From positions 4,200,001-4,232,000 of the forward strand of contig NC_009483.1 of NCBI RefSeq assembly GCF_000016745.1: a stretch of 32,000 bases of DNA, read 5' to 3'. The notes beneath the pieces were generated by a model. It saw only the letters and a list, made by a program, of their open reading frames with translations. It was not told the origin of the DNA and did no database searches. Positions 13,332 through 31,080 of the stretch are shown here, one piece after another (the stretch's first letter is position 1; each line of letters opens with the position of its first letter). This DNA comes from Geotalea uraniireducens Rf4. GTDB taxonomy: Bacteria > Desulfobacterota > Desulfuromonadia > Geobacterales > Geobacteraceae. The translations under genes and the position numbers were made by a program.

Positions 13332-13386
13332 TTACACCTCAGTCAGAAACCGCCAGCGGCTCAGGAAAACATCAGCCCTGTTCCGG

Positions 13387-13638: not shown

Positions 13639-13928
13639 AACGTCTCCCGCGCAGGCCAGCCCTGCCTTAGTGTTTTACATGTTTAGCCACCGGAGCATTA
13701 TACCGTATCAGTGCAGGGTTGCCACTCTTTTTCAGGCGTCCGGCCGGCACGGTTGCCCATGTACGAGGCAGATAGCCGGTGACAGACAACTTAAAAAGCT
13801 ATATCACCGCAGATAAAAAGCGTCAAGCGCTCTTGCCGGCACGAAACGGGGTCTGAGCACAAATACACGCGGGGGAACCATCACTTCGACGGTCCGCCCA
13901 GACGACCAGACAGCCGCACCGTTTGTGT

Positions 13929-13957
13929 TTGCTTTATTCCATCAAACAATTTAGCAT
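13929..13957 (+). promoter_or_regulatory. Possible sigma-70-type promoter for the B12-radical SAM gene
   Basis: TTGCTT (13929-13934), a 17-nt spacer, then TAGCAT (13952-13957), about 48 nt upstream of the TTG start at 14005. Pattern match only. Confidence 0.25.
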
Positions 13958-14004
13958 AGGCGCCATTACGTCCCTGCCACAATACTCACCCCGAAGGAGC
14001 ACCA

Positions 14005-15423
14005 TTGAAAGCCCTGTTTGTCCATCCCCACGGCAAGAACTGGTTGGGGACCATGAAGGATATCAGTTCCATCTTCAACCTGATGCCGCCGCTGGGCATG
14101 ATGAGCATTGCCGCCTACCTGGAGGCAAGGGGGATGGAGGTGGAGCTGATCGACTGTTACGCCCATCCCGTCTCCACGGCAGAGCTGGTTGCCGGGATCA
14201 TCGCAAAAGCGCCCGACGTGGTCGGCTTTTCCTGCACCACCTCTTCATTCCTGGAAGGATACCAGATAGCGCTCCGCCTCAAGGAGCTGGCGCCGCAGAT
14301 CAGGGTGGTGTTCGGCGGCGCCCATGCCTGCTCGGTCGGGGTATCCCTCCTGGACGATTTTCCGGCCATCGATTACCTGGTTATCGGAGAAGGAGAGGTA
14401 ACCTTTTTTGAACTGCTGGCCAGCGGCTTCAGCGGCGTGGAGGCGATCCCGGGAATCGGTTTCCGCCTGGACGGCAAAGGGGCGTTCAGCGGCAATCGCG
14501 AACATATCGCCGACCTCGACACCCTCCCCTTCCCCGCCTATCGCCGGCTGGCCGATTTCCCCGGCCGCTACAACCTTCCGCTGTTCAGCTACCCCCACGC
14601 CCCAAACACCAGCATCATTTCCAGCCGGGGCTGCCCCTACAACTGCAGCTACTGCGACAGATCCGTGTTCAGCCGAGGCTTCCGCTTCAACTCCCCCGCA
14701 TACATCTTCGAGCACCTGAAGTATCTGCACCGGGATTTCGGCATCCGCCACGTCTTTTTCTACGACGACCTGTTCACCTTCGACCGCAACCGCGTCGAAG
14801 AACTGTGCCGCCTGCTGGTGGACAGCCGGCTGCCGGTAACCTACAACTGCATCGCCCGGCTTGAACATGTGGATTGCGAACTGGTGGGTCTGCTCAAGAA
14901 GTCCGGCTGCTGGCAGGTAAACTTCGGCGTCGAATCCGGCGACCCGGAGATCCTGAAAAAACACCGCAAGTACATGGCGCTGGACGCTGTGCAGCAAAAG
15001 CTCCGGATGGTCGGGGATGCCGGAATGAGGGTCAAGGGACTGTTCATGGTCGGGCTGCCGGGAGAGGATGAAACAGCGATCCGGCGCACCATCGACTATG
15101 CCCTGACACTGCCGCTGGACGAAATCAACGTGACCAAGTTCACCCCGTTCCCCGGAGCGCCCATCTACCGGAACATCCGTGAGCAGGGGGAATTCAATGA
15201 AGAATGGCCGGCAATGAACTGCATGAACTTCGTCTTCATCCCCCACGGAATGACGAAGGCGCAGCTGGAGGACCTCTACAACGAATTCATCCGCCGCTTC
15301 TACCGCCGCAGCCGGATTCACTGGGGCTACACCAGGATGATCTGGAAATCGCCCCACAGCATAGCCATGTTCCTGCGCAACCTGCCGGAAATCCTCAGGT
15401 TCGAGATGCAGCAGAAATGGTAA
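14005..15423 (+). CDS. B12-binding domain radical SAM protein (class B)
   Basis: GAAGGAG SD 5 nt before TTG 14005. N-terminal Rossmann-like B12-binding region (PPLGMMSIAAYLEARGMEVELID, VVGFSCTT). Radical SAM motif SSRGCPYNCSYCD. Confidence 0.9.
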   Translation: MKALFVHPHGKNWLGTMKDISSIFNLMPPLGMMSIAAYLEARGMEVELIDCYAHPVSTAELVAGIIAKAPDVVGFSCTTSSFLEGYQIALRLKELAPQIRVVFGGAHACSVGVSLLDDFPAIDYLVIGEGEVTFFELLASGFSGVEAIPGIGFRLDGKGAFSGNREHIADLDTLPFPAYRRLADFPGRYNLPLFSYPHAPNTSIISSRGCPYNCSYCDRSVFSRGFRFNSPAYIFEHLKYLHRDFGIRHVFFYDDLFTFDRNRVEELCRLLVDSRLPVTYNCIARLEHVDCELVGLLKKSGCWQVNFGVESGDPEILKKHRKYMALDAVQQKLRMVGDAGMRVKGLFMVGLPGEDETAIRRTIDYALTLPLDEINVTKFTPFPGAPIYRNIREQGEFNEEWPAMNCMNFVFIPHGMTKAQLEDLYNEFIRRFYRRSRIHWGYTRMIWKSPHSIAMFLRNLPEILRFEMQQKW

Positions 15424-15442
15424 TCCTATAAAAAGCATTTTA

Positions 15443-15572
15443 GCCACGAATTTTCACGAATTCGCACGAATATACAAGCTCTTGTGATGCGGAAGACACT
15501 CACCAGATCGGTGACAACTCAAGACTTAATAAGGGGTTAAAAACATTCGTGTTTATTCGTGTCATTCGTGGC
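15443..15572. repeat. Long hairpin with oligomer-repeat arms (GCCACGAATTTTCACGAATTCGCACGAATA ... ATTCGTGTTTATTCGTGTCATTCGTGGC)
   Basis: Arms at 15443-15472 and 15545-15572 are complementary, each built from reiterated CACGAAT / ATTCGTG units. About 70 nt lie between them. Confidence 0.8.
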
Positions 15573-15622
15573 TAACTGCCGTTTGGGGGGTAATAGTTGA
15601 CTGGACTCACGAAGGGGCGCAT

Positions 15623-16225
15623 ATGCACGGACCTGGACAAAAATATCTGCTTTCTGCGATTGCCGGTTTGGTAATCCTGCTCGGCAGCCATGTCGGCTTT
15701 TGCGCGGATGCAGCCGCCTTTAAGACCGCCACGGCCGAATATACCTTCCTCTCCGGCTACGGCATCACCCATCGCGGCTTCGGCGCGACCCGCACCCAGG
15801 TGCAGACCTTCGACAACATCGCCAGATTCGGCTGGTTCCTCTCGGATGAGGCCGGCAGCGGATGGTATCGGGGGAGGCATGAACTGCTGATGGAATTGCC
15901 GTTGCATCTGGCGGTCGACCCGAAGGTGCGGACCATGACGGGGGGATACCTGTTGGGGAGTTGGAAGTTCACGTCACCGGAGGACTTTGTGCCGTATGTC
16001 CTGGCAGGCGGCGGCGTGCTCTTCGTGGATCTCGGCCTGCCTACCATGGGGAGCCGCCTCGACTTCTCCTACCAAGGGGGAACCGGCATCCAGTATTTCA
16101 TTGCCAAAGACACGGCGCTCAGCTTTGAATACCGCTACCACCATATCTCCAACGCAGGCACCGCCTCGCCCAATGAGCCGCTCAACTCCAGCAAGATCCT
16201 GCTGGGCATCACCATCTTCCGTTAA
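15623..16225 (+). CDS. PagL-like acyloxyacyl hydrolase / lipid A deacylase-type outer-membrane beta-barrel protein
   Basis: Signal peptide, alternating beta-strand pattern, and C-terminal YRYHHISNAG...PNEPLNS resembling the PagL His/Ser active-site region. Confidence 0.65.
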   Translation: MHGPGQKYLLSAIAGLVILLGSHVGFCADAAAFKTATAEYTFLSGYGITHRGFGATRTQVQTFDNIARFGWFLSDEAGSGWYRGRHELLMELPLHLAVDPKVRTMTGGYLLGSWKFTSPEDFVPYVLAGGGVLFVDLGLPTMGSRLDFSYQGGTGIQYFIAKDTALSFEYRYHHISNAGTASPNEPLNSSKILLGITIFR

Positions 16226-16232
16226 CGACATA

Positions 16233-18764
16233 TCAAGCGCGTAGTTTAAGACAGATCACCGCCGGTAGCGTGACCAGGGCGAATAAGGCGGTGGCGGCAA
16301 CGCCGTAATTGGTCGCCCAGCCGATGGAGGACATGGCGCCGTAGTCGGTGAACGCCAGCGAGCCGAAACCGGCAATGGTCGTCAATGCCGACAGGAGTAT
16401 GGCCCGTCCCGACTGGACGAACTGGTCCCGGCGCTCGTCAGCACCGGCCGCGGTCACCCGGTGAACGATATGCATGCCATAATCGCTCCCCATGCCGAGG
16501 ATGGTGACCAGCACCATGGCGTTCATGAAATTGAGCCGCATGCCGGTCAGAACCATCAGCCCGAGCATGGCGATTACCCCTCCCACCACGGGAAAGAGCG
16601 CATACCAGATGTCCCGCAAGGTTGAGAAATGGGAGAGAAGCAGAAAGAGCACCATCGCCCCACCCAGCACGAACCCCCAGAAGAAACTCTTCTTTACAGC
16701 ACTGCTCAGCTGGCCGCTGACCAGATCTGCGCTGGTCGCCCGCGCAGCCAAGTCAATGGCCGCCAGTTCCCGGAGAAAGGATTGCTGGGGGAATTCCGCG
16801 CCGCGGTAATTGATGAAGACGAGCAGGTGGTAGCCGCCGCTGTCCCTGACCAGGTGCCGATCCGACACCCCGCGTAACGGCGAACGGCCAAGGCGCTCGA
16901 TTCCTGCCGCCATGTCCACCGGTTGGGCCAGCAGCAGACCGGCAAGGCCGGCAAGGAAAGGCTCAAAGGCCTCCGGAGCAAAGCCGTTTTCCCGCAGGGC
17001 GCCCTGCACCGCCTGAGCCGGCTGCTGCGCCGCCAGGGCTCGATTCAGGGAGGTCAAGACCTCCCCCTGCGTTGTCCGGTCATTGAGCACCTGGCCGAGC
17101 GACGACCAGGAGACGATCTCACCGCGCCGCTGGTAACCCGCCAGCAGTTTTTCCACCCGCCCACCCTGCTCCATCACCTCCACCGGCGAACGCCCTGTCA
17201 GCGCCACCAGCATCTGTTTCGGGCTCAGGCTCAGGTGCTTCTCGATCTTCTCCTGGGTCAGGAACGCCTCAGAATGGCGCGGCTGGAGATTTTTCAACTC
17301 CCCTTCAAAGCCGATGAAGCATGCCGCGATCAAGAGCAGGCAGATCAGCAGCACCGATGCCGCCACCAGCCTGCGCGAGCGCTGCACGCAGGTTTCCCAG
17401 ACCCAGCCGAGGCCGAATCGCGGCAGAGGGCGATAGGATGCGGCGGGGAAGCGCTGTTCGGCGAACAGCAGGAGCGGCGGCAGGAAAAAGAAGGTGGCAT
17501 AGAGAGAAAAGATCACCCCGAGACCTACCAGCAACCCCAGTTCGAACAGGGCGCGCACATCCGAAACAGTGAGCGCCAGGAACGGCAAGGCGGTGGTGGT
17601 CGCGGCGGTAAAGACGCCATGGCCGGTCTCGACCATCGCCAGCCGCAGGGCCTCGCCGGTTTCCCGGCCGGCGCTCCGCTCCGTATAAAAACGGTCATAG
17701 AGATGGATGGAGTAATCGGTGCCCAGGCCGATGATCAACGCGGTAAAGGCGAAGGATATGATGCTGATGGAGGAGAGAAACAGCCCGGCGCTGCCAAGGG
17801 CCAGCACGACCCCGTAAAAGAGGATCAGCGGGATCAGGAGAGTGGGGAGGACCCGGCGATAGGTAAGGTAGAACAACCCCAGCACGACGAACAGGGAAGA
17901 GACCACGCAGGCGATGATGTTCTGCTTCATCACCTGTTCGTCGATCACCGCGCTCAGATGGGCGCCGGCGCAGGAAACCTTCACCCGCGCCCCGCGGCGG
18001 ATCTCATTGATGCCGGCGACGAGTTTTCTGGCAAAGGCCATGTTCTGCACCGGCTGGGCCGGTTCGGCGATCATGATCAGCACCCGGCCGTCGCGGGAGA
18101 GGAAGTAGGGTGAAGAGGGATCAAGGGCCAGGGCCTGGCTCCCCTTTTTCAGGCGCGGCAGGATAAACTCCCGCAGGTAGAGCGGATCGGCGGCAATTAT
18201 ATCACGCATTCCCATCCCCGCCTGGCTGGCCAGTTCGGTCCTGGCCCGTGCCAGCGCCCGGTCGAGAGCCGGCCTCTCAAAGCGCGCTGCATAGTCGCCG
18301 GCAGCCGCCGGATCGAGGAAGAGTTGCGGGTTGCCTACCGCATAGCCGATGAATTCGGCGAAGGAGGCGGCCTCAGACGTGTCGTAGACCCGGTAATTCA
18401 CCTTGCGGAATGCGTTTCTGCCATCAACCTGCAGCGCCCTGAGCCTGGTAGCCAGGTTTTCCGCCTCGCCTGGCAAAAGCGCCGGCTCCCCCTCCAGCAG
18501 GAAATAGACCTCTTTGGCGCTGCCGGTCCATTCCAGCGAATCGAGGAACAGCCTGAGCGGCCCTTGCTGCGCCGGAAACAGCTTGAAGATGTCCGCTTCG
18601 AAACGGGTGGTGGCGATGACAGCGATGGCCGGAATCAGCAGAAAGAGCGCGACGCCGACCACCCGCCGGGGGTAAGCGGAGGTGATACGGTAAATCCACT
18701 GGAGATGCCGGTTGACGAGCAGCTGGAAGGCGCGGGTTATGTTATGGAAGATGGCATGTGACAT
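16233..18764 (-). CDS. MMPL/RND-superfamily exporter (about 12 TM, two large periplasmic loops)
   Basis: Two homologous membrane bundles with GLGTDYSIHLYDRF and GMGSDYGMHIVHRV motifs. 843 aa. Starts 17 nt downstream of the LolA-like gene. Confidence 0.85.
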   Translation of the reverse strand: MSHAIFHNITRAFQLLVNRHLQWIYRITSAYPRRVVGVALFLLIPAIAVIATTRFEADIFKLFPAQQGPLRLFLDSLEWTGSAKEVYFLLEGEPALLPGEAENLATRLRALQVDGRNAFRKVNYRVYDTSEAASFAEFIGYAVGNPQLFLDPAAAGDYAARFERPALDRALARARTELASQAGMGMRDIIAADPLYLREFILPRLKKGSQALALDPSSPYFLSRDGRVLIMIAEPAQPVQNMAFARKLVAGINEIRRGARVKVSCAGAHLSAVIDEQVMKQNIIACVVSSLFVVLGLFYLTYRRVLPTLLIPLILFYGVVLALGSAGLFLSSISIISFAFTALIIGLGTDYSIHLYDRFYTERSAGRETGEALRLAMVETGHGVFTAATTTALPFLALTVSDVRALFELGLLVGLGVIFSLYATFFFLPPLLLFAEQRFPAASYRPLPRFGLGWVWETCVQRSRRLVAASVLLICLLLIAACFIGFEGELKNLQPRHSEAFLTQEKIEKHLSLSPKQMLVALTGRSPVEVMEQGGRVEKLLAGYQRRGEIVSWSSLGQVLNDRTTQGEVLTSLNRALAAQQPAQAVQGALRENGFAPEAFEPFLAGLAGLLLAQPVDMAAGIERLGRSPLRGVSDRHLVRDSGGYHLLVFINYRGAEFPQQSFLRELAAIDLAARATSADLVSGQLSSAVKKSFFWGFVLGGAMVLFLLLSHFSTLRDIWYALFPVVGGVIAMLGLMVLTGMRLNFMNAMVLVTILGMGSDYGMHIVHRVTAAGADERRDQFVQSGRAILLSALTTIAGFGSLAFTDYGAMSSIGWATNYGVAATALFALVTLPAVICLKLRA

Positions 18765-18781
18765 GATAGTGTTCGCCGGGT

Positions 18782-19390
18782 CTACTCCAGCAGGAAATCC
18801 TTATCCTTCAGCCCCGCGTTGCGGCGCATGTTGGCAAACCTGATGACGGTACGGTCACGGTTGCGCTCCTCGATGACGAGCCGCTTGATCTTCCCTTCGC
18901 CGTCAAAGCTGATCTGCAGCTCCTTTATCCCCCCCTTGCTCTTGGGAAAGACCTGCATGGTCCAGTTGCCGCCCTGGCGCTCCGCCCGCACATCAGCCCC
19001 CTCGGGCAGGGCGGTAAGCGGCTTGGCCAGGTAAGAGAACCATTTTTCCAGGCTCTCCTCCGGCGGCAGCACGATCCGGTCGGTCACCCCCTGCTCCGGC
19101 AGCCGGATCGTCAGCACATTGTCCCGCAGGAGCAGGCGGCTCGCATAGGGAGGAAAGAGCTCCATAAAGAACATGCCCGGCTTTTTGAAGCGGACCACCC
19201 CCTTGGAGACCATCTTCCGTTTCATCAGGGCCAGCTGCTTTTCCTGGACAATTTCTGCGGTAAAGTCGGACATGCCGGCAAACCCGTGCCGCAGCGTCTC
19301 CAGCGCCTCCAGCGCCTTATCCTGGGCAGCGTGGGCAGAAGGAGCGAGACAGGTAAAAATTATCAGTACTACCAGCAACACCTTTTTCAT
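18782..19390 (-). CDS. LolA-like outer-membrane lipoprotein carrier family protein
   Basis: Signal peptide MKKVLLVVLIIFTCLAPSAHA. LolA-type pattern F.AEIVQEK......VSKGVVRFKKPGMFFMELFPPYASRLLLRDNVLTIRLP. Confidence 0.8.
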   Translation of the reverse strand: MKKVLLVVLIIFTCLAPSAHAAQDKALEALETLRHGFAGMSDFTAEIVQEKQLALMKRKMVSKGVVRFKKPGMFFMELFPPYASRLLLRDNVLTIRLPEQGVTDRIVLPPEESLEKWFSYLAKPLTALPEGADVRAERQGGNWTMQVFPKSKGGIKELQISFDGEGKIKRLVIEERNRDRTVIRFANMRRNAGLKDKDFLLE

Positions 19391-19464: not shown

Positions 19465-19487
19465 TGAAAAAGCCCTTGCAAAAGGGG
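19465..19487 (-). terminator. Weak intrinsic terminator candidate after the last island gene
   Basis: On the minus strand: CCCTT-ttgc-AAGGG followed by CTTTTTC. The stem is only 5 bp. Confidence 0.25.
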
Positions 19488-19566
19488 GGGAGACCATATA
19501 CGGACAACGCTGAGTTTGTCTTTCCTTTTGTTGAGACCATTCCGGCACCATCAACGAATTGATCAA

Positions 19567-20610
19567 CTATTCCTTGACGGTGTTGTCTTCTTCGCTACTA
19601 TCCGAAAACTCCGCCTCTAACTCCTCAATGGTTGGCAGGCTCCCTTTCAGGTTTTCCGGAATAGCGGCCACCAATTGATATTCGGATACACCCACCGGCT
19701 TTAAAATGTCTTTCAGTGCATACTCTGCAATTAATCCCTTTCGATCTTTGCAGAGAATCAGACCAATTGACGGATTATCGCTTTCATGCCGCATGGTGGC
19801 ATCCACAGCCGAGAGATAAAAATTGAGTTTCCCGGCATATTCCGGTTTAAAGGAGGTCGCCTTCAGTTCGATCACCACATAGCAGCGGAGTTTCAGGTGA
19901 TAGAACAGCAGGTCTATGAAAAAATCTTCTCCCTCCACTTCCAGGTGTACCTGCCGCCCAACAAAGGAGAAACCGGTCCCAAGCTCCAGTAAAAAACTGG
20001 TAATGTGCTTCACCAGTTCGCGCTCAACTTCACGTTCCTGGGCCTCATTGCCAAGTCCCAGAAAGTCGAACAGATATGGGTCTTTCAAAGTCTGATGCGC
20101 CAGATCGGATTGAGACGGAGTTAGAGTAGCGGCAAAGTTGCTGACAGCTTTTCCTTGTCGATGAAAGAGGCGAGACTCAATCTGCATTACCAGAATGTCG
20201 CGCGACCAGCCATGTTCGAATGCCTTGTGGATGTACCATTCCCGCTCTTCCGGTAATTTGACCTTCTGAATGAGGCGGACAATATGACCCCAGGGCAATT
20301 GTGAAACAAGCTGTTTCACTTTTTCCTCATCCGTGTACGCCTCGGCAAAAGCTCGCATAAACAGGAGGTTCCTGGGAGAAAACCCCTTCATATCCGGAAA
20401 CTCGGCACGTAAATCCCTTGCCAGTCGCTCTGTAACCTTGGCGCCCCATCCTTCTCGCTCCTGCCGTTCGAGGATGTCACGGCCGATCTGCCAGTAGAGC
20501 AGTACCAGTTCGTGGGTAACCGCCAGCGCCGCCCGCGTCCTGGCGGTGCGTATGCGCGCCTTCAGGTCGTGTAGAAAATGGTTGTAAGCGGTGGTGTCAA
20601 GGGTGGTCAT
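19567..20610 (-). CDS. DUF1016/YhcG-family PD-(D/E)xK nuclease domain protein
   Basis: ATG 20610 is preferred (GGAGA 5 nt upstream); the ORF track uses TTG 20622. N-terminal YhcG-like region (LLYWQIGRDILERQEREGWGAKV...LPWGH). C-terminal FIDLLFYHLKLRCYVVIELK nuclease motif. Confidence 0.85.
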   Translation of the reverse strand: MTTLDTTAYNHFLHDLKARIRTARTRAALAVTHELVLLYWQIGRDILERQEREGWGAKVTERLARDLRAEFPDMKGFSPRNLLFMRAFAEAYTDEEKVKQLVSQLPWGHIVRLIQKVKLPEEREWYIHKAFEHGWSRDILVMQIESRLFHRQGKAVSNFAATLTPSQSDLAHQTLKDPYLFDFLGLGNEAQEREVERELVKHITSFLLELGTGFSFVGRQVHLEVEGEDFFIDLLFYHLKLRCYVVIELKATSFKPEYAGKLNFYLSAVDATMRHESDNPSIGLILCKDRKGLIAEYALKDILKPVGVSEYQLVAAIPENLKGSLPTIEELEAEFSDSSEEDNTVKE

Positions 20611-20625
20611 GTTTTTCTCCAAAAC

Positions 20626-21618
20626 TCAATCATTCTTCCGATTGATCAGATTGACAATCACCTTAGCGATGGTCTCCTTCTCTTCCGGCCGACTTTCGGC
20701 AATGAGCAGGGTCAGCGCCACCAGAGCGTTGTCGGCCAGCCGCTTGCTGCCGTCGGGGCGGTAGAGGATGCCGTTCATGCCGAGGAAATAGATAAACAGG
20801 GCAGCGGCGATCCGTTTGTTGCCGTCACTGAAGGCGTGGTTTTTGACGACGAAGTAGAGGAGGTTGGCCCCCTTTTCCTCTACGCTGGGGTACAACTCCT
20901 CGCCGCCGAAGGTTTGGTAGATGGCCCCCAAGGCGCTCTTGAAACCCTGGTCCTTCTCGATACCGAACAGACCGTCGAAATCTCCCTTCATGGAGATAAC
21001 AATACCTATGGCTTCGTCATAGTCGATGACGTGCAGCGCCTGCCGGGTAGTCTCCTCGATGGACAGAGTGCCGTGGTCGTAGCGATCCAGGAGGGTCAGG
21101 GCATAAGCGTAATCGGTGATGACCCGCAGCACGTCCTTGCCGGTTTCATTGACCAGTTCCTGGTTGGCCAGGGTGCGGGCCAGCAGTTCCACGGTCCGGC
21201 GCATATCGGTCAGCTTTTCGGCCTGCTCACGGAAGCGCTGTTCGTTAACGGTGTAGCCTTTGACGATGTGGTCGCGCAGGACATGCGTAGCCCACTGGCG
21301 GAAGCGGGTGCCTTGCTGCGACTTGACCCGATAGCCGACGGAAATGATGACATCCAAATTGTAGTGGGCGGTATCATAGGTTTTTCCATCAGCGGCAGTT
21401 ATCCGGAATTTCCGGATAACTGAAGATTCATCCAACTCACCCTCGCGGAAAATATTCCTGATGTGTTCGTTGATTGTTCTAACATCCTTATTGAAAAGCT
21501 CGGCCAGTTGCTTTTGGGTCAGCCAGACGGTCTCTTTTTCGAGATGCACCGCAAGCGAGGTTGCCCCATCCGGGGTCTGGTACAGGACGACAGCATTGTC
21601 AGTAATGGTCATACTCAT
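20626..21618 (-). CDS. RhuM-family N-terminal domain fused to a Fic/Doc-type domain
   Basis: RhuM-like region: VVLYQTPDG...VWLTQKQLAELF...TINEHIRNIF...HYNLDVIISVGYRVKSQQGTRFRQWAT. The C-terminal core motif HAFSDGNKRIAAA has Lys at the Doc-type position (HxFxDGNKR). Confidence 0.85.
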   Translation of the reverse strand: MSMTITDNAVVLYQTPDGATSLAVHLEKETVWLTQKQLAELFNKDVRTINEHIRNIFREGELDESSVIRKFRITAADGKTYDTAHYNLDVIISVGYRVKSQQGTRFRQWATHVLRDHIVKGYTVNEQRFREQAEKLTDMRRTVELLARTLANQELVNETGKDVLRVITDYAYALTLLDRYDHGTLSIEETTRQALHVIDYDEAIGIVISMKGDFDGLFGIEKDQGFKSALGAIYQTFGGEELYPSVEEKGANLLYFVVKNHAFSDGNKRIAAALFIYFLGMNGILYRPDGSKRLADNALVALTLLIAESRPEEKETIAKVIVNLINRKND

Positions 21619-21683
21619 GCCTCAATAAAATCTAGTGAAAATTGCAATATGCATTTTTTGCAAATTGCTTTTTCGTTGGACTA

Positions 21684-23132
21684 CTACCCTTCTGCAAATG
21701 CATCACGCAAGTGATTTTTGCCGTCGGCGGCAGCTGTTTCCAAAAAGGAAATAGCTGCCTGCTCGTCCTGCTCAATGGCAATTTCCACGGCACGCTTGGC
21801 GGTTTCGAGTAAAGCGGTGGATTGCTTTTTGAGCGCAAGAGAGGAAATAATCTTCTCTCGGATTTTCAACTGGGTGTCTTTGGCTACAAAAGGGATAAGG
21901 ACTTGGGCAACATCTTTCGGGTATAGGTGCGGCTGTGCCGAACCGGTTCTCATTTTCTCGGTTTGAAGACGACCAATAAATGAGTTAATTACAAACGCGA
22001 CATACACGGGGTCTTCAATAACCCGAAGAATGATAATATCTTGGCATGCGACCGCCTTTTTCTCAGAAAGATAAGGCTGAGCTCTCCCGATATTTGCACC
22101 TGTCCCATAGATGAGAATATCGTTCTCTGCAACAAAAGATGTTTCCTCTGTTGAGAAGTGCTTTATATTGGTTTTGTCGAAGTTGTCGTAATTCAGTCCA
22201 GCTTCAAGGATATGTTTCTGGGTAATCATATCGACGGTTCCGGTCTCGTCATAAATTGCAGCCATCCCGCGTGAATTATAGGTTTGAATCTCCTCAACCC
22301 GCTTGAAATACTCACCATTGCTCTTGATGAGTTCTTCTATTTCGTCAAACATCGGCTGGTAATACTCCGCATCCATACGACCAGATGCGACGAAAGACTC
22401 CTTGAACGATTTGATGTTGGTGTTTTTGGTGGTGGGGGTGTAGGTGGCGAGGTTTAGTGCGTTGAGCAACAGGGTTTCGGCATTTTTATAGGAAGCTATT
22501 CCTTTGGATGAAACTTCGACCGAGTTCTGATGCAATTCAACAATTCTATTCTGAAATTCCTGCCCGAATAGTGGGATGAAAACGTCTCTTATATCTTCCA
22601 AGTGAAGATCGGGTTGACTTGCACCTTTTTGCACGCGCAGCAATTGTGTTTGACCACTTTCACTATTGATAAATGTTGCCAAAACTTCCGGCGCAATTAA
22701 TTCGGTTCTTGGTCGAAGTAATGCGACGCTCACAAAAATACTGAAGACTGGCAAACCTTCTGGAACTACAGCAGCCCATCGCGGGCCAACACCAACTTTA
22801 CGAAGCAATACATCCCCAGGCTGGGGATCACATCTTCGATAAAGATTATCGTGTTCTTCAGAACTGATGAATCGGTGCCCAGCTTCAAGGCTTAGCGAAT
22901 TTTCCAATACATTCAGCGCGGAAAGAAATGGGACGCCATTTTCTGTATAACTCGGCGTGAAGTGTGTTCCGTCAGAAATCTTATTCGTAAGAGTAGAAAG
23001 AAGCACAGGACTTTTACTCTTTAATAAATTTTCCAAAGAAAGATATTTTTTCTGGTAATACTCAGCTTCCATGCGAACAGGCTTGTGAAGCGATGAAAAT
23101 AATATCTCGCTAATCTCAAGCCCTTCCAACAA
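21684..23132 (-). CDS. hsdS: Restriction-modification specificity subunit with two target-recognition domains
   Basis: Internal duplication RMEAEYYQKKY / RMDAEYYQPMF and KGASQPDLHLEDIRDVFIPLF / TGSAQPHLYPKDVAQVLIPFV. Starts about 30 nt after the methyltransferase stop. The start is uncertain: it is a TTG and the frame stays open upstream without ATG, GTG or TTG. Confidence 0.85.
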   Translation of the reverse strand: MLEGLEISEILFSSLHKPVRMEAEYYQKKYLSLENLLKSKSPVLLSTLTNKISDGTHFTPSYTENGVPFLSALNVLENSLSLEAGHRFISSEEHDNLYRRCDPQPGDVLLRKVGVGPRWAAVVPEGLPVFSIFVSVALLRPRTELIAPEVLATFINSESGQTQLLRVQKGASQPDLHLEDIRDVFIPLFGQEFQNRIVELHQNSVEVSSKGIASYKNAETLLLNALNLATYTPTTKNTNIKSFKESFVASGRMDAEYYQPMFDEIEELIKSNGEYFKRVEEIQTYNSRGMAAIYDETGTVDMITQKHILEAGLNYDNFDKTNIKHFSTEETSFVAENDILIYGTGANIGRAQPYLSEKKAVACQDIIILRVIEDPVYVAFVINSFIGRLQTEKMRTGSAQPHLYPKDVAQVLIPFVAKDTQLKIREKIISSLALKKQSTALLETAKRAVEIAIEQDEQAAISFLETAAADGKNHLRDAFAEG

Positions 23133-23161
23133 CGCCCGATAACGGGCTTCATCGAAAGGGC

Positions 23162-25378
23162 CTAAAGAAAAAAACTTAGGCGCTCCTTTTTGGCAAATTC
23201 GATAAAAGCCTCGGCAATGCCGTCTTGGGTCAAGCCGTCGTGATTGAACAGGTCGTGCTTGACGATCAGGTGTTCATGGGCATCCAGCACAAATTCGTTG
23301 AGGTCTTGCGGCGTGGCTTCGTAGCGATTAATCACTTCGGCGGCGATGTTCTTGGCAGGCGTCTTTTCTGCGCTGGCCACTGCCGGCAAGTCCTTGCGTT
23401 TCACAAATATCTTATCGCCGCTATTGTCCTTGCTCGGCTCCTTCATGGTGGCAAAAAAGATGTGGTAATCGTCCACCCTGGGGCAGAGCTTGTCGTCCCA
23501 CTTTTGCACGAATATCACGCTGGTTTTGGTGCCGGTGTGCGGCTTGAACACGTTGCCGTGCAACCCCACCACGGCCAGGATGCGGCAATGGTCGGCCAGG
23601 TATTCGCGGATGTATTTGTCGCTGGAGTTGTTAAAGCGGCCCTGCGGCAACACAATCGCCATCCGCCCGCCGGGCTTGATGAAGCTCAGATTGCGCTCGA
23701 TAAACAGGATGTCGCGACCGACATTGTTTTGGTCTTTGATTTTTACCTTGCGGAACGAGCCGTCGGCCATTTTGTAGATGGTATCAAAGCTGGCGCGCAA
23801 GCACTCCGGGAAAGTCGGCACGCGCTGGGTCGCATCCTCGATGTTCTTGTCGTTCTCATCGACCTTGCTAATCTTGTCCAGGCTCACGGTTCGTGCCAAT
23901 TCATATTTGGCCAGAATACGGGTTTCCTTGATGTCACCCGCAAACGGTGGATTGGCCATGAGGATGTCAAAGGAGAAGTCCCTGTCTTGCTCTTTGGCCG
24001 CTCTCTGTTTGCGCAGCTTTTTCCAGCCTTCGCTGTAAATGTCAGTCCAATTTTGGTCTTTGGTTTTTTCGTCCCAACGTTCGTAATCCAAGGTGTTGAG
24101 GTGCAGCACGTTGGTTTGGCCGTCACCGGCGATCAGGTTCAGGGTCCGGCCTACGCGCACGGCCTTTTCGTCAAAGTCGATGGCAAATACTTTATCCTGC
24201 ACGTAGTCTGTCTCGCGCGGTGTGCGTTGCTCTGTAGTGAAGTGATCGCTTATGGGTAAGCCAAGATCACGCCGGATCTGATGCCAGACATGAAAAATGG
24301 TGTGCACCGGAAAGCCGCAACTACCAGCGGCGGTGTCGATTATCGATTCGTGCTCCTGCGGATTGAGCATCTTGACGCACATATCAATTACGTAGCGCGG
24401 AGTGAAATACTGCCCTTTCTCCCCCTTGCTGCTTTTATTGATGAGATACTCGAAAGCCTCATCCACCACGTCCAGATTGGAGTTAAACAGCTTCACCCCT
24501 TCCAGTGACGATACGCACACAGCCAGGTGGCTGGGGGTGAGATCGATTTTTGCGCCATCGGGAAATACCCCTTCCCACTTGCCGCGAGCTTTGTCGAACA
24601 ACTCCTGGATTTTGGCTTTGAGTTCGGTTTCGGTGTCGCCATAGTTTCTAAAAATGAGATGGCGCTTTTTGTCGCGCCCACTTTCCATTTCGTCATACAG
24701 CTTGGTAAAGATTAGTTTGAACAGCTCCTCAAAGACATCCACGCCGGCGTTGGCGAGAACTTCATCCTCCATCTCCAGAATCAGGTCTTTGAGCGATTTC
24801 TTTTGATTGACCAGGACGTCGTGTTTTACAAGGTCGTCAAGCGTCCAGCGCGCTGTCAGGATGTCGGAAAGCTTTTCATGGGCCGAGGGGATGGCAGGGA
24901 TAGGCTCAAAGTAGTTCGGGTCTTTACGGTGATAGAACGAAATGCTGTCACCATTACTCCAGACCCCCATAGGTGCGCCACTGAAATTGCAATAACTTTT
25001 GAGCTGTTCTTTGCCATCTTTGAGTTTGGGCTTCTTTAACTCCACCAAGATGTAAGGGGTAGTTGTTTTGTCCTTATCAAAAACACAGATATCAACCCGC
25101 TTTTTTTCGCGACCACGAGTTACGTCGTATTCAAGAGAAAGGCGATTGATTGGATAGTCCAGATCATCTTTGAGCACCATCACATACAACTGGCGCACAG
25201 CTTCCTCGGGCGTGAGCTTGATCGGTTTGCCGCGCACCAGGCAAGAGACGTAAGGGGCGGGATTCTTCTCCGTCTCCTTCATCGTGATGCTAGCCTCTAA
25301 TGCTTGAATTTGAGCTGGTTTAAATTGCGTGAGCTTGTAGGCGCTGTCTTTGAGTAGTTCGGCCAGTGTGATCGTCAT
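23162..25378 (-). CDS. N6-adenine DNA methyltransferase with N-terminal PD-(D/E)xK (HsdR-N-type) nuclease-like domain, a putative R-M fusion subunit
   Basis: AGGAAA SD. N-terminal RVDICVFD...YILVELKKPK. Methyltransferase motif I IIDTAAGSCGF and motif IV MANPPFAG. 738 aa, with long spacers around motif IV. Confidence 0.8.
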   Translation of the reverse strand: MTITLAELLKDSAYKLTQFKPAQIQALEASITMKETEKNPAPYVSCLVRGKPIKLTPEEAVRQLYVMVLKDDLDYPINRLSLEYDVTRGREKKRVDICVFDKDKTTTPYILVELKKPKLKDGKEQLKSYCNFSGAPMGVWSNGDSISFYHRKDPNYFEPIPAIPSAHEKLSDILTARWTLDDLVKHDVLVNQKKSLKDLILEMEDEVLANAGVDVFEELFKLIFTKLYDEMESGRDKKRHLIFRNYGDTETELKAKIQELFDKARGKWEGVFPDGAKIDLTPSHLAVCVSSLEGVKLFNSNLDVVDEAFEYLINKSSKGEKGQYFTPRYVIDMCVKMLNPQEHESIIDTAAGSCGFPVHTIFHVWHQIRRDLGLPISDHFTTEQRTPRETDYVQDKVFAIDFDEKAVRVGRTLNLIAGDGQTNVLHLNTLDYERWDEKTKDQNWTDIYSEGWKKLRKQRAAKEQDRDFSFDILMANPPFAGDIKETRILAKYELARTVSLDKISKVDENDKNIEDATQRVPTFPECLRASFDTIYKMADGSFRKVKIKDQNNVGRDILFIERNLSFIKPGGRMAIVLPQGRFNNSSDKYIREYLADHCRILAVVGLHGNVFKPHTGTKTSVIFVQKWDDKLCPRVDDYHIFFATMKEPSKDNSGDKIFVKRKDLPAVASAEKTPAKNIAAEVINRYEATPQDLNEFVLDAHEHLIVKHDLFNHDGLTQDGIAEAFIEFAKKERLSFFL

Positions 25379-25452
25379 GAAGTTTTCCTATGCTATGTTC
25401 GGTTAAGTTCTTGTTGTTGATTACAGTTTTAAGTGCCGCCCATGGTTGGATG

Positions 25453-26334
25453 CTACAAATCATATTCAAAAAAATCCGAATCAACCTTTTTAATTTCGTA
25501 AATTGACTCTACAGAGACACCGACACCATGATCGATCATATATTCTGCGAGTTGGGAGCCATCGATAAGAATGATACGAGAAGAATACTCTTTTACTGAG
25601 GCAAGAGCGTCTTTGGTGAAATTAGAAGTGGTAATGAATATACCTTTTGAAGCTTTTTTTTTAGAAAGGGCGCCTGCAAATTGGTCGATGTCTGGGCTAC
25701 CAACGGGTTTATCAGTCCATCGTTTTGCTTGAATATAGATGTTGTCTAGGCCAAGTTTATCTTCTCTGATAACACCATCTATTCCACCATCGCCAGTTTT
25801 GCCAACCGCTTGACCAGCATCTTTCAATGATCCGCCATAACCCATTTTGACTAGTAAAAGAATTACGAGCCTTTCAAAAAACTGCGGTGAACATTTTTTT
25901 ACTTTATCAAGAATCTCAGAAGCTAATGCATGTCGAATTTGCTCATAATGCGATGCAATTGATTCAATTGGCGTGTCATGTGGCGTTGAGTCATTTTCTT
26001 TTTTACTCTTCTTCTTGCCTTGAAATTCCAGAAATTCCGCAAATTGTGACAAAAGTTTATTGTCAATTCGACTTGGCTTTTTCTTGAGAACGTCAACACC
26101 TCTTTGAGTAATTTTGAAAAAGCCGCGTCGAGTAGCTTCCAGTAGGCCGGCTTTTTGTAAATATGTTCTCGCCCATGAAGCTCTGGACGAAAATTTGAAT
26201 GTCCCCCCGCTTGGCAACAATTCTTTTCTTTCCTCTTCTGTTAGCTTGAAATCATCAGCCAACTGGTCAATCGCTGCGGACAGTTGCAGTTCGTTGCCAT
26301 TCGCTTTGGCTGCGATTTGCATCAATGGGAGCAT
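25453..26334 (-). CDS. mrr: Mrr-family (type IV, modification-dependent) restriction endonuclease
   Basis: N-terminal Mrr_N-type winged helix (ELLPSGGTFKFSSRASWARTYLQKAGLLE...RGFFKITQRG). C-terminal catalytic region GDGGIDGVI...IYIQAKRW. Confidence 0.85.
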   Translation of the reverse strand: MLPLMQIAAKANGNELQLSAAIDQLADDFKLTEEERKELLPSGGTFKFSSRASWARTYLQKAGLLEATRRGFFKITQRGVDVLKKKPSRIDNKLLSQFAEFLEFQGKKKSKKENDSTPHDTPIESIASHYEQIRHALASEILDKVKKCSPQFFERLVILLLVKMGYGGSLKDAGQAVGKTGDGGIDGVIREDKLGLDNIYIQAKRWTDKPVGSPDIDQFAGALSKKKASKGIFITTSNFTKDALASVKEYSSRIILIDGSQLAEYMIDHGVGVSVESIYEIKKVDSDFFEYDL

Positions 26335-26445
26335 AATGTAGATTCATAATCAGGAATAGGCATCTCAATATCTCCGTTTCTTGTTCATCCAACGGTTTCG
26401 CCAGTCACCTGACGTGAAGCGATGGTTCGGCTCTCGCAGCACTCG

Positions 26446-26838
26446 TTACGCTGCCAGCTCTTGCAGCACCTCGGGATGTCGTGAAGCTACTTTCAGTAAG
26501 GTAGCTGCCGCTCCGGATGGCATTTTTCGCCCCTGCTCCCATTCCTGAAGCGTACGCACCGAAACTCCAAGAAGCTTGGCAAATGCAGCTTGAGACAATC
26601 CCGTTGCCGCTCTTGCTGTAGCGACCAGAGCTTTTTCAGCCGGGATGATTTCGTCTTTCTCTATTGTTCCGTCGCGTCTGGTAATAATGCGACGAACTGA
26701 CCCGTCCGGTTGTGTAATAAATTCGGTTTTCCTAGCCCAATCGCCGCGTTTCATTTCGCGTAAGGACTGCAAAAGCTCAGCGTTAAGATCCCGCTTTTTT
26801 TCCCATGCAGCCAGTTCTTTTTCAGACAATTTAACCAT
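26446..26838 (-). CDS. higA: HigA2-like antitoxin with C-terminal XRE-type HTH
   Basis: ATG 26838 is preferred (AAGGAGG 9 nt upstream). It overlaps the toxin stop as ATGGTTAA. HTH: TGLSQAAFAKLLGVSVRTLQEWEQGRKMP. Confidence 0.8.
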   Translation of the reverse strand: MVKLSEKELAAWEKKRDLNAELLQSLREMKRGDWARKTEFITQPDGSVRRIITRRDGTIEKDEIIPAEKALVATARAATGLSQAAFAKLLGVSVRTLQEWEQGRKMPSGAAATLLKVASRHPEVLQELAA

Positions 26839-27145
26839 TTTCAAATACCTCCTTGAGGCGTCTCAGCAATTTGGGGTCTATGTTTTCTTGTACGTTTTTC
26901 GCATACATTGTCACCAGCACTATCTGTCCGGGATTGAGACGTAGGAAATAAATCACCCGCACGCCTCCCCGCTTGCCACGTCCCTCGATTGCCCATCGCA
27001 GTTTCCGGCAGCCGCCGGAGTGAGGGATAACGTCGCCCTTATCAGGGTGTTCAGTCAGATAAAGCTGAAGTGCCGCGAATTCGTCATCGTTCAGATACTT
27101 GTCACGAACAGTGGCAAATGGATGCAATTCGATGAATGTGAGCAT
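26831..27145 (-). CDS. higB: HigB2/RelE-superfamily toxin
   Basis: 104 aa. GGCRKLRWAIEGRGKRGGVRVIYF...IVLVTMYAKN signature. The toxin-first gene order is typical of HigBA. Confidence 0.8.
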   Translation of the reverse strand: MLTFIELHPFATVRDKYLNDDEFAALQLYLTEHPDKGDVIPHSGGCRKLRWAIEGRGKRGGVRVIYFLRLNPGQIVLVTMYAKNVQENIDPKLLRRLKEVFENG

Positions 27146-27156
27146 GATTTAAATAT

Positions 27157-27169
27157 ACGTCTTAGACGT
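27157..27169. promoter_or_regulatory. Palindrome ACGTCT-T-AGACGT just upstream of the toxin start, a possible TA operator
   Basis: Perfect 6+1+6 palindrome 12 nt upstream of ATG 27145, embedded in an AT-rich tract (tttaaatat) that could serve as a -10 region. Confidence 0.3.
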
Positions 27170-27316
27170 AGACTGGTCAAGGGGAAATATTTTCATTTTC
27201 TTCTTTCGCCTTTATTCTGCCGAACATATTGGTCAGCTGATCCGCTACTAAATATACAATCACGCATAAAGCCGCATTGAATCACGAAATACGGATTTCA
27301 ATTAACGCAACCAGCA

Positions 27317-27342
27317 TAAAAAACAACACCGGTTTTTAACCG
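27317..27342 (-). terminator. Intrinsic terminator candidate after the dehydratase gene
   Basis: On the minus strand: CGGTT-AAA-AACCG followed by GTGTTGTTTTTTAT, 10 nt after the stop. The stem is short. Confidence 0.35.
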
Positions 27343-27352
27343 AGCCTTTTTT

Positions 27353-27766
27353 TCACATCTTCCCCACCGCCAGGGTGAGCGTGGCAGAAGCAATGACCTT
27401 TCCTTCCGACCGCACCTCCCCCTCCACCAGGTGGAGCGTGCCGAAGGATTTGACGATGCGGGTCGCGACCAGGAGCCTTGCACCGGCAGGCACTGCGGCA
27501 GGCAGTTCCCCCCGCTCGATGGCGGCAAGGACCCCACCTGCCCCTTCCTGCTGGCCTGCGGCGATGCCGCCCAGCTGGGCCATGGATTCCAGGAGGAGCA
27601 CCGGCGGAAAACAACCGCAACCGGCAGTGACCACAACCTCACCTGTGGCGCACACCCCCGGTTCAAGGGTGATGATCCTGTCGACAAAGAGAAACGGGGA
27701 GCGATGGGGAAGATAGTGGGAGGGGTCAGGGTTGAACAGGGTCGCCTCCCCTGAAATCGATGGCAT
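27353..27766 (-). CDS. FabZ/FabA-like hot-dog fold (3-hydroxyacyl-ACP) dehydratase homolog
   Basis: LPHRSPFLFVDRI and LLLESMAQLGG match FabZ signatures. The usual GHFP reads GCFP, so the catalytic His appears replaced. This ATG overlaps the upstream gene by 41 nt, so the start is uncertain. Confidence 0.7.
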   Translation of the reverse strand: MPSISGEATLFNPDPSHYLPHRSPFLFVDRIITLEPGVCATGEVVVTAGCGCFPPVLLLESMAQLGGIAAGQQEGAGGVLAAIERGELPAAVPAGARLLVATRIVKSFGTLHLVEGEVRSEGKVIASATLTLAVGKM

Positions 27767-31053: not shown

Positions 31054-31080
31054 GGTTACTCCTCAATACATTTAGATCCA

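What the first reader, a model, noticed from the sequence alone, without database searches (positions are those of the whole stretch)
19567..21618. Tightly coupled RhuM-Doc/Fic fusion and YhcG (DUF1016) nuclease in the slot where hsdR would be
Two genes follow the S subunit in the same orientation. The first fuses a RhuM-type N-terminal domain to a C-terminal Fic fold whose core motif is HAFSDGNKRIAAA. That is the Doc-type Lys variant associated with toxin kinase activity rather than AMPylation. The second is a PD-(D/E)xK YhcG nuclease whose SD (GGAGA) and ATG lie within 15 nt of the preceding stop. No Phd-like antitoxin is visible for the Doc-like domain. Such passengers recur in R-M operons, but their function is essentially untested. 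This pair could be a second-line (abortive or anti-anti-restriction) module sensing failure of the adjacent R-M system, in analogy to PrrC/EcoprrI.
Basis: partly seen in the sequence, partly recalled or inferred. Interest (0 to 1): 0.7.

Follow-up and report, generated by a model that had tools for sequence, protein, structure and literature searches.

The report
Two independent defence-island passenger genes
Both genes are real (a RhuM-type protein fused to a Doc-like toxin-kinase domain, and a YhcG nuclease), but they are separable, already-catalogued passengers of a mosaic defence island, not a conserved pair standing in for a missing restriction subunit.

Summary
The sequence-level observation holds. 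On the minus strand, a 330-aa RhuM-N/Doc fusion (20626-21618, motif HAFSDGNKR) is followed 15 nt later by a 347-aa YhcG/DUF1016 nuclease (19567-20610).

The interpretation mostly does not hold.
1. No hsdR is missing. The "M" protein carries an N-terminal PD-(D/E)xK nuclease domain, its best solved relative is the type IIB enzyme RM.BsaXI, and its family is a two-gene RM+S module without a helicase in four unrelated genomes.
2. The pair is not conserved. A sister strain has RhuM-Doc alone at the same chromosomal site. Other close relatives have it alone between housekeeping genes. YhcG lies near RhuM-Doc only in the closest lineage, upstream and often as fragments. None of the sampled YhcG loci has a RhuM-Doc neighbour.
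3. The 15-nt spacing is generic. Elsewhere the same gene ends 14-17 nt before housekeeping ispF.
4. Both families are already phage-defence candidates (PADLOC PDC-S23 and PDC-S02), and the RhuM-DOC/R-M association was described in 2013.

Most likely this is a mosaic island of autonomous modules, with RhuM-Doc as a single-chain, antitoxin-less candidate abortive-infection toxin. That mechanism is inferred.

The parts
26831..27145 (-). RelE/HigB-like toxin gene (104 aa), first gene of the island
   Evidence: Pfam RelE E 1.3e-6. Absent from sister contig L081.
26446..26844 (-). HTH (HTH_3 / MqsA-like) antitoxin gene (132 aa)
   Evidence: Pfam HTH_3 E 2.6e-10 and MqsA_antitoxin E 2.8e-8.
25453..26334 (-). 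Mrr-type (type IV, modification-dependent) restriction endonuclease gene
   Evidence: Pfam Mrr_N plus Mrr_cat (E 4.7e-36). PADLOC mREase_IV E 7e-76.
23162..25378 (-). RM fusion protein (738 aa): N-terminal PD-(D/E)xK nuclease domain (HSDR_N_2; D96, E113, K115) plus gamma-class N6-adenine methyltransferase (NPPF at 476-479).
   Evidence: Pfam HSDR_N_2 E 5e-29 and N6_Mtase E 1e-29. Best PDB relative is RM.BsaXI 8w0p, collinear over three segments including the nuclease motif. Residue positions and 114/120 homologues keeping D..ExK. BsaXI mutagenesis (PMC11997821).
21684..23132 (-). Specificity (S) subunit, 482 aa, two target-recognition halves. It has a 14-aa C-terminal extension that runs into the old RhuM-Doc upstream region.
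   Evidence: PADLOC Specificity_I E 9e-47. Alignment with S genes of four homologous RM+S loci. Internal 29-nt direct repeat D1.
21619..21683 (-). RhuM-Doc 5' region with palindromes (TTTGCAAA, ATGCAT, TTGCAA). It travels with the gene.
   Evidence: About 50 nt of it is retained in L081, and more of it in L178, L001 and L003, at different chromosomal sites. The strict motif is confined to this sub-lineage.
20626..21618 (-). RhuM-N / Doc fusion (330 aa). Residues ~10-135 are the module shared with classical RhuM, with a putative HTH at 31-58. Residues ~136-196 are a helical linker. Residues 197-325 are a complete Doc-like domain with HAFSDGNKR at 261-269.
   Evidence: Pfam. PADLOC PDC-S23 over the full length, 453 bits. 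PHROG 577 'Doc-like toxin' over residues 197-325, E 6e-17. PDB Doc 9vzc and 3k33. N-module 46% identical to classical RhuM over residues 11-130 only. Motif invariant in 89 sequences.
20611..20625 (-). 15-nt spacer with GGAGA; start of the YhcG cassette
   Evidence: Sequence. Homology with L081 ends exactly at the RhuM-Doc stop codon.
19567..20610 (-). YhcG/DUF1016 PD-(D/E)xK nuclease (347 aa)
   Evidence: Pfam DUF1016_N plus YhcG_C. PADLOC PDC-S02, 521 bits. PHROG 22762. D233 and E248-x-K250.
19473..19566 (-). YhcG 3' trailer ending in a terminator-like hairpin (19473-19486). The right edge of the cassette is at about 19478.
   Evidence: Terminator scan. Homology with L081 resumes here. The first 53 nt of the trailer are shared with L001.

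Best explanation
The window (Geotalea uraniireducens) carries a roughly 7.9-kb low-GC mosaic defence island inserted between an ApeP-like dehydratase gene and lolA. It is made of modules that work, and come and go, independently:
- a RelE/HTH toxin-antitoxin pair;
- an Mrr type IV nuclease;
- a two-gene BsaXI-like restriction system, in which the RM protein carries its own nuclease and pairs with an S subunit, so no HsdR is expected;
- RhuM-Doc;
- a single-gene YhcG nuclease cassette.

RhuM-Doc is a self-contained, single-chain module. Its N-terminal HTH/RhuM-N part, shared with classical RhuM proteins, is the presumed sensor, DNA binder or cis-inhibitor. Its C-terminal Doc-type domain is the presumed effector kinase that would arrest translation during infection (abortive infection).

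Shown: the domain composition, the motif, autonomy from YhcG and from R-M, and the absence of an antitoxin gene. Inferred: kinase activity, its target, autoinhibition and an anti-phage role.

YhcG is a separate DNA nuclease candidate that happens to sit directly after the RhuM-Doc stop codon.
For: 1. Island and modules: GC profile and domains.

2. Sister contig L081 has flanks 95-97% nt identical to the window and RhuM-Doc alone at the same site. It lacks 21669-27325 (TA, Mrr, RM, S) and about 19478-20625 (YhcG). The breakpoint lies exactly at the RhuM-Doc stop codon, and only 96 and 99 nt of intergenic DNA remain, leaving no room for an antitoxin gene.

3. Other close relatives (88-91% aa identity):
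- alone between gpsA and ispF (L175);
- alone between groEL and a cupin gene (L176);
- behind a Bro-N gene (L002);
- behind an MmeI-like RM gene (L178).

4. Census of 78 GTDB loci. The two nearest genes on each side belong to 155 and 162 different Pfam families. R-M families appear in only about 4-7 of about 140 neighbours per side.

5. A YhcG HMM scan that also detects fragments finds YhcG in 5 of 82 loci. It is always upstream, and three of the five are fragments while RhuM-Doc is intact. None of the 72 more distant loci has it.

6. Reverse census of 80 YhcG loci: no RhuM-Doc, and only two with a classical RhuM next door.

7. The 14-17-nt spacing also occurs between RhuM-Doc and housekeeping ispF.

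8. The RM+S module is autonomous:
- similarity to BsaXI, including the nuclease residues;
- no helicase within 8 kb in Geobacter, Nitrosospira, Duganella or Pseudomonas.

9. Doc character:
- the motif is invariant;
- a full-length Doc-like PHROG match;
- the best PDB relatives are Doc proteins.

10. Swappable effector: the N-module is shared with classical RhuM and the C-terminus differs.

11. A RhuM-domain single gene gave about 1000-fold protection against T7 and T5 in E. coli B (preprint).
Against: - No experiment exists on RhuM-Doc (PDC-S23) itself.
- Kinase activity, target and autoinhibition are inferred from the motif alone.
- Two AlphaFold runs gave poor models (pLDDT 50 and 57), so an intramolecular inhibitory contact could not be checked.
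- YhcG and RhuM-type genes do recur as neighbours more often than two random genes would. This holds for five of the eight closest GTDB relatives and for two distant loci with RhuM then YhcG in the window's order, one of them between hsdM and hsdS. Some functional affinity is therefore not excluded.
- The S/RhuM-Doc junction is shared with L001, so in this lineage RhuM-Doc did travel with the R-M system.
- The one DUF1016 gene tested gave no protection, so YhcG may not be a defence gene at all.
Confidence: 0.6

Rival explanations
1. RhuM-Doc and YhcG form a two-gene second-line module, abortive or anti-anti-restriction, that monitors the adjacent R-M system as PrrC does with EcoprrI.
For: - Same strand, with a 15-nt gap containing a Shine-Dalgarno sequence.
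- Both families are enriched next to hsdS genes, with odds ratios of 17 and 14 (PMC9881135).
- YhcG or its remnants lie within 0-1 genes of RhuM-Doc in five of the eight closest relatives.
- RhuM then YhcG occurs in the same order in L156 (between hsdM and hsdS) and in L153.
- A multilevel-defence role for RhuM/DOC with R-M was proposed in 2013 (PMC3710099).
Against: - RhuM-Doc is intact without YhcG and without R-M in L081, L175, L176 and L002.
- YhcG is reduced to fragments in L001, L003 and L005.
- The gene order is reversed relative to the window in all five GTDB loci.
- None of the 72 more distant RhuM-Doc loci has YhcG, and none of the 80 YhcG loci has RhuM-Doc.
- None of five plasmid copies has a DUF1016 neighbour.
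- The tight spacing recurs with ispF.
- There is no vacant HsdR role to fill.
Confidence: 0.1
2. RhuM-Doc is mainly a selfish persistence or addiction element. It is a Doc-type toxin whose loss is counter-selected, which is why it outlives its neighbours and rides on plasmids and transposons. Any defence role is secondary.
For: - It is the one intact gene while neighbours vary or decay.
- It occurs as one-gene islets between housekeeping genes.
- Copies sit beside Tn3 transposases on conjugative plasmids.
- Sequence conservation is very high across phyla: the top 120 hits are at least 79% identical.
- Doc is the classic plasmid-addiction toxin.
Against: - A single polypeptide with no separate labile antitoxin has no obvious route to post-segregational killing.
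- No antitoxin-sized ORF is present.
- PADLOC flags the family because of its association with defence islands.
- A RhuM-domain relative gave phage protection.
Confidence: 0.15
3. YhcG is a mobile single-gene nuclease cassette (homing-like or otherwise self-mobilising). It inserts into compact intergenic sites of defence islands, so its position after RhuM-Doc reflects where it landed, not what it does.
For: - Relative to L081, the cassette is a clean insertion or deletion of about 1.15 kb that starts at the base after the RhuM-Doc stop codon.
- The same YhcG lineage (88% nt identity, including 53 nt of trailer) sits on the other side of RhuM-Doc in L001.
- YhcG often sits with 4-nt overlaps between hsdM and hsdS.
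- It also occurs in phages.
Against: - No terminal repeats or target duplications were found.
- No recombinase is associated with it.
- Deletion in L081 explains the same data, and the shared S tail in L001 favours deletion.
Confidence: 0.1

Closest known systems
'Virulence protein RhuM/Fic/DOC family protein' (NCBI name); PADLOC phage-defence candidate PDC-S23; RhuM-DOC fusions described by Anantharaman et al. 2013 (PMC3710099)
   Same: Full-length match to PDC-S23 (453 bits, residues 7-328). Same two-part architecture. Same occasional residence in R-M loci.
   Different: Nothing substantive; this is an ordinary member. The family itself has no published functional test that I could find.
P1 Doc / Phd-Doc toxin-antitoxin systems (PDB 3k33, 9vzc)
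   Same: Doc-type active-site motif HxFx(D/N)(A/G)NKR with the diagnostic Lys. The whole Doc domain aligns (PHROG 577). Doc proteins are the closest solved relatives.
   Different: - It has no Phd partner gene.
- The Doc domain is fused behind a roughly 195-aa RhuM-N/linker region.
- It scores below the NCBIfam DOC_P1 cut-off (32.3 vs 38.65 bits).
- Its activity and target are untested.
Classical RhuM (Pfam PF13310; PADLOC PDC-S05)
   Same: N-terminal ~120 residues are 46% identical. Both are frequent R-M and defence-island passengers. One PDC-S05 gene protected E. coli B against T7, T5 and T4.
   Different: The C-terminal two-thirds of the RhuM profile are absent here and replaced by Doc.
YhcG / DUF1016 (Pfam PF17761 + PF06250; PADLOC PDC-S02)
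   Same: Both domains match at full length and the E-D-ExK nuclease motif is intact.
   Different: None. The family's function is unknown, and one member tested gave no protection against T4, T5 or T7.
BsaXI (type IIB R-M; (RM)2S; PDB 8w0p)
   Same: N-terminal PD-(D/E)xK nuclease followed by a gamma-class adenine methyltransferase in one chain. A separate two-TRD S subunit. No translocase. The catalytic D, E and K residues align.
   Different: The protein is 738 aa against 916 aa for BsaXI. Similarity stops at BsaXI residue ~622, so the C-terminal knob and paddle are probably missing. The cleavage pattern is unknown. The closest named profiles are the MADS MAD2 and MAD5 models, both below cut-off.
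PrrC / EcoprrI (anticodon nuclease held latent by a type I R-M enzyme)
   Same: A toxin-like gene sitting in an R-M locus.
   Different: There is no ABC-ATPase or HEPN domain. The R-M neighbour is facultative and of varying type (BsaXI-like, MmeI-like, type I or none). No evidence exists for interaction.

Membership tests
RhuM/Fic/DOC fusion family (PADLOC PDC-S23) | Full-length match to the family profile | tested here: met
   PDLC04965: E 1.2e-136, residues 7-328 against profile 4-326/327. More than 8000 homologues with the same two Pfam domains.
RhuM/Fic/DOC fusion family (PADLOC PDC-S23) | Single-gene system (no obligatory partner gene) | tested here: met
   Alone in L081, L175 and L176. 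Neighbours fall into more than 150 Pfam families per side.
Doc toxins (Fic/Fido superfamily) | Active-site motif HxFx(D/N)(A/G)NKR with Lys at position 8 | tested here: met
   HAFSDGNKR at 261-269. H, F, D, G, N and K are invariant in 89 sequences. Consensus taken from PMC4177925.
Doc toxins (Fic/Fido superfamily) | Doc-type helical core fold | tested here: inconclusive
   Sequence profiles cover the whole domain (PHROG 577, residues 197-325; Pfam Fic). The AlphaFold models were too poor (pLDDT 50-57) to confirm the fold.
Doc toxins (Fic/Fido superfamily) | Cognate Phd-type antitoxin gene directly upstream | tested here: not met
   No such ORF in the window. Only 96 nt separate the upstream gene from RhuM-Doc in L081.
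Doc toxins (Fic/Fido superfamily) | Score above the curated NCBIfam DOC_P1 cut-off | tested here: not met
   32.3 bits against a cut-off of 38.65.
Doc toxins (Fic/Fido superfamily) | Phosphorylates EF-Tu and arrests translation | not testable with these tools
   Needs a kinase assay.
YhcG / DUF1016 | DUF1016_N plus YhcG_C domains above Pfam cut-offs, with the E-D-ExK motif | tested here: met
   159 and 217 bits against cut-offs of about 33. D233 and E248-L-K250 present. Motif as defined in PMC1189080.
Type I R-M (HsdR/M/S) | Separate HsdR translocase-nuclease subunit | tested here: not met
   None in the island. None within 8 kb of four homologous RM+S loci. TIGR00497 hsdM scores 28.9 bits against a cut-off of 242.75.
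Type IIB R-M (BsaXI/BcgI-like) | One chain with an N-terminal PD-(D/E)xK nuclease plus an N6A methyltransferase, and a separate S subunit | tested here: met
   HSDR_N_2 plus N6_Mtase. D96, E113 and K115 align with BsaXI D90, E105 and K107. NPPF motif present. S gene adjacent.
Type IIB R-M (BsaXI/BcgI-like) | Cuts on both sides of a bipartite site | not testable with these tools
   Needs enzyme assays.
MADS (methylation-associated defence system) | MAD2 and MAD5 equivalogs above cut-off, together with the other mad genes | tested here: not met
   MAD2 scores 304 bits against 720. MAD5 scores 117 bits against 400. No other mad genes are present.
PrrC-type R-M-guarded toxin | ABC-ATPase plus HEPN anticodon nuclease, obligatorily embedded in a type I R-M operon | tested here: not met
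   No such domains. The R-M neighbour is facultative.

The most novel reading that the evidence does not exclude
RhuM-Doc is a single-chain, antitoxin-less Doc kinase that acts as the long-lived anchor of a defence-gene hotspot. Unrelated restriction systems (BsaXI-like RM+S, MmeI-like, type I M+S) are repeatedly found immediately upstream of it, and YhcG cassettes lie on either side. It would serve as a generic abortive back-up for whichever restriction system sits in front of it, and its N-terminal HTH would bind the palindromic 5' element that travels with the gene.
Probability: 0.15. Interest if true: 0.6.

Novelty: new member of a known kind. Interest (0 to 1): 0.25.

Why it matters
As filed, this matters little. 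Both genes belong to abundant, already-named candidate defence families, and the proposed coupling is not conserved.

Three by-products are useful:
- M-like proteins carrying an HSDR_N_2 domain should be read as nuclease-bearing RM fusions with an S partner, not as orphan type I M/S pairs.
- Natural variants (sister strain, gpsA|ispF site) show that RhuM-Doc is autonomous and unusually persistent. That makes it a clean single-gene target for testing whether a Doc-type kinase can work without a Phd antitoxin.
- The 15-nt gap is shown to be uninformative about partnership.

Tried and rejected
1. Structure prediction of RhuM-Doc was run twice, with 14 and 89 sequences. Mean pLDDT was 50 and 56.6. 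Only residues ~30-110, an HTH-like segment with a beta wing, reached about 80.

2. Foldseek against the PDB gave nothing at E <= 1e-3. The question of an intramolecular inhibitor of the Doc site therefore stays open.

3. A profile search of the PDB found no relative for the N-terminal module. Pfam gives only weak HTH hints (E 0.02-0.15).

4. YhcG has no solved relative by sequence.

5. No repeats flank the island or the YhcG cassette; only short matches of chance level were found.

6. Promoter-like sites are not above shuffled expectation (7 against 8.3). Terminator-like sites are slightly above it (14 against 9.5), and two of them sit at module edges.

7. I considered MADS membership for the RM and S proteins and rejected it, because scores are below cut-off and the other genes are missing.

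8. My first reading of L081 was 'window gained the genes'. I revised it after L001 showed the same S-tail/RhuM-Doc junction, so L081 more likely lost them.

9. No paper in the library mentions PDC-S23.
Full report
**What is there.**
The window matches Geotalea uraniireducens: the RM protein is 100% identical to an NCBI protein of that species on a 5.14-Mb contig. Between about 19.4 and 27.3 kb the GC content drops to 0.42-0.54, against about 0.58-0.64 in the flanks.

All genes of this island are on the minus strand. In order they are:
- a RelE-like toxin (26831-27145);
- an HTH/MqsA-like antitoxin (26446-26844);
- Mrr (25453-26334);
- a 738-aa methyltransferase-like protein (23162-25378);
- an S subunit (21684-23132);
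- the RhuM/Fic fusion (20626-21618);
- YhcG (19567-20610).

The flanks encode an aryl-polyene-like lipid cluster: a ketosynthase pair and an ApeP-like hot-dog protein on one side, LolA and MMPL on the other.

**Observation check.**
- The fusion matches Pfam Virulence_RhuM, but only profile positions 1-73 of 252, and Pfam Fic.
- HAFSDGNKR is at residues 261-269. It fits the Doc consensus HxFx(D/N)(A/G)NKR and not the AMPylator consensus HxFx(D/E)GNGR (PMC4177925).
- A phage 'Doc-like toxin' profile covers residues 197-325, which is a whole Doc domain.
- The nearest solved proteins are Doc toxins.
- YhcG has both family domains and an intact D233/E248-x-K250 motif.
- Fifteen nucleotides containing GGAGA separate the two genes.

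The description is correct.

**There is no missing HsdR.**
- The 'M' protein begins with an HSDR_N_2 PD-(D/E)xK domain.
- Its best solved relative is RM.BsaXI, a type IIB enzyme that works as (RM)2S. The alignment is collinear and places D96 and E113-L-K115 on BsaXI D90 and E105-V-K107. Mutagenesis showed those BsaXI residues to be essential (PMC11997821).
- 114 of 120 close homologues keep the D...ExK pattern.
- In four unrelated genomes (Geobacter, Nitrosospira, Duganella, Pseudomonas chlororaphis) the same RM protein is followed by an S gene. No helicase-type gene lies within 8 kb, and the gene after S differs each time.

The R-M module is therefore a self-sufficient two-gene system, and nothing is standing in for HsdR. 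It scores far below the hsdM and MADS equivalog cut-offs.

**The pair is not a conserved unit.**
RhuM-Doc belongs to a very large, highly conserved family: at least 8000 hits, of which the top 120 are at least 79% identical. NCBI names it 'virulence protein RhuM/Fic/DOC family protein', and PADLOC holds it as single-gene candidate PDC-S23. YhcG is PADLOC PDC-S02.

- **Sister contig.** L081 has flanks 95-97% identical to the window and RhuM-Doc alone at the same chromosomal site. The window has an extra 21669-27325 and an extra ~19478-20625. Homology stops at the last base of the RhuM-Doc stop codon.
- **Other close relatives (88-91% identical).** The gene is alone between gpsA and ispF (L175), alone after groEL (L176), behind a Bro-N gene (L002) or behind an MmeI-like enzyme (L178).
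- **Wider census.** In 78 loci from different GTDB species, the two nearest genes on each side fall into 155 and 162 Pfam families. R-M families account for only a handful.
- **YhcG near RhuM-Doc.** A YhcG profile that also detects fragments finds it in 5 of 82 loci. All five are among the eight closest relatives, all are upstream, and three are fragments beside an intact RhuM-Doc.
- **Reverse census.** Of 80 YhcG loci from metagenomes, none has RhuM-Doc nearby. Two have a classical RhuM directly upstream, one of them between hsdM and hsdS.
- **Plasmids.** Five plasmid copies show one hsdM-hsdS-RhuM/Fic/DOC-hsdR operon, two Tn3 neighbourhoods and two arrays of small ORFs, with no DUF1016.
- **Spacing.** At the gpsA|ispF site the RhuM-Doc stop codon lies 14-17 nt before the ATG of housekeeping ispF. 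The tight spacing is how this compact gene sits anywhere.

**History of the locus (inference).**
L001 keeps a YhcG 88% nt-identical to the window's, including 53 nt of trailer. This is fused to the last codons of an S gene of the window's type (ISILETAASDGK against ISFLETAAADGK) and then to the RhuM-Doc 5' region. The S/RhuM-Doc junction therefore predates the split of these lineages. L081 is more likely a double-deletion derivative than an ancestral state.

The position of YhcG is permuted between the two loci, and I could not explain this. RhuM-Doc is the constant survivor.

**Mechanism.**
The N-terminal ~120 residues are shared with classical RhuM at 46% identity. The C-terminus is swapped for Doc. 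This is the pattern of a common sensor or binding module with alternative effectors. There are weak HTH signals and a moderately confident helix-turn-helix-plus-wing segment at residues ~31-90.

With an invariant Doc motif and no room for an antitoxin gene, the most economical model is an autoinhibited single-chain Doc-type kinase released by an infection cue. This is inference, and structure prediction failed to test it.

A RhuM-domain single gene protected E. coli B about 1000-fold against T7 and T5. A DUF1016 gene did not protect against T4, T5 or T7 (preprint 10.1101/2024.09.26.614923).

**Comparison with the literature.**
- RhuM-DOC fusions in R-M/PrrC neighbourhoods, and a 'multilevel defence' role, were proposed in 2013 (PMC3710099).
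- DUF1016 and RhuM are among the annotations most enriched next to invertible hsdS genes (PMC9881135).
- YhcG was predicted to be a nuclease in 2005 (PMC1189080).

The finding is thus an ordinary instance of known, functionally unproven passenger genes. Its specific hypothesis (a coupled pair guarding an HsdR-less R-M) is not supported.

**Verdict.**
Novelty: new member of a known kind. Interest: 0.25.

Noticed in passing
window 21619-21683 (minus strand); also L081, L178, L001, L003 upstream of RhuM-Doc: A roughly 60-nt 5' element rich in palindromes (TTTGCAAA, GTGCA-N5-TGCAC, ATGCAT) travels with the RhuM-Doc gene to at least four different chromosomal sites. It could be an operator for the protein's own N-terminal HTH. 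The strict motif is limited to this sub-lineage.
   Followed up: partly
L175, L002, L178 (gpsA|ispF site): At one chromosomal site in related Desulfuromonadales, RhuM-Doc is constant while the gene just upstream is absent, a Bro-N gene or an MmeI-like type IIG enzyme. This mirrors the window/L081 pair, where a BsaXI-like RM+S is present or absent upstream.
   Followed up: partly
window 23162-25378 and homologues P0121-P0240: A very large family (at least 8000 hits) of HSDR_N_2 + N6_Mtase proteins with an adjacent S gene is annotated as 'N-6 DNA methylase' or 'type I M protein'. It looks instead like nuclease-bearing RM fusions of the BsaXI type, shorter at the C-terminus.
   Followed up: partly
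window ~19478-20625 vs L001 5257-5976: The YhcG cassette (ORF, 15-nt leader and trailer) is 88% nt-identical in L001 but lies on the other side of RhuM-Doc, joined to an S-gene tail. This is a circular-permutation-like arrangement without flanking repeats.
   Followed up: partly
L006, L008, L153: An AAA_14/DUF4143 ATPase gene recurs next to YhcG and RhuM-type genes in three loci.
   Followed up: no
window 21684-21725 (end of the S gene): The S subunit has a 14-aa C-terminal extension (AADGKNHLRDAFAEG) that is absent from four homologous S proteins. The ORF appears to read on into the former RhuM-Doc upstream region.
   Followed up: partly
window 9864-19390 and 27353-32000: The island interrupts an aryl-polyene-like lipid biosynthesis and export cluster: a ketosynthase pair, SDR, ApeP-like hot-dog, LolA, MMPL, PagL-like and several B12-binding radical-SAM genes. 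A terminator-like hairpin (27329-27343) follows the hot-dog gene.
   Followed up: no
L172 (Vibrio plasmid), L174 (Shewanella plasmid): Plasmid copies of RhuM/Fic/DOC sit inside long same-strand arrays of small hypothetical ORFs, a layout reminiscent of plasmid leading regions. This was not examined further.
   Followed up: no
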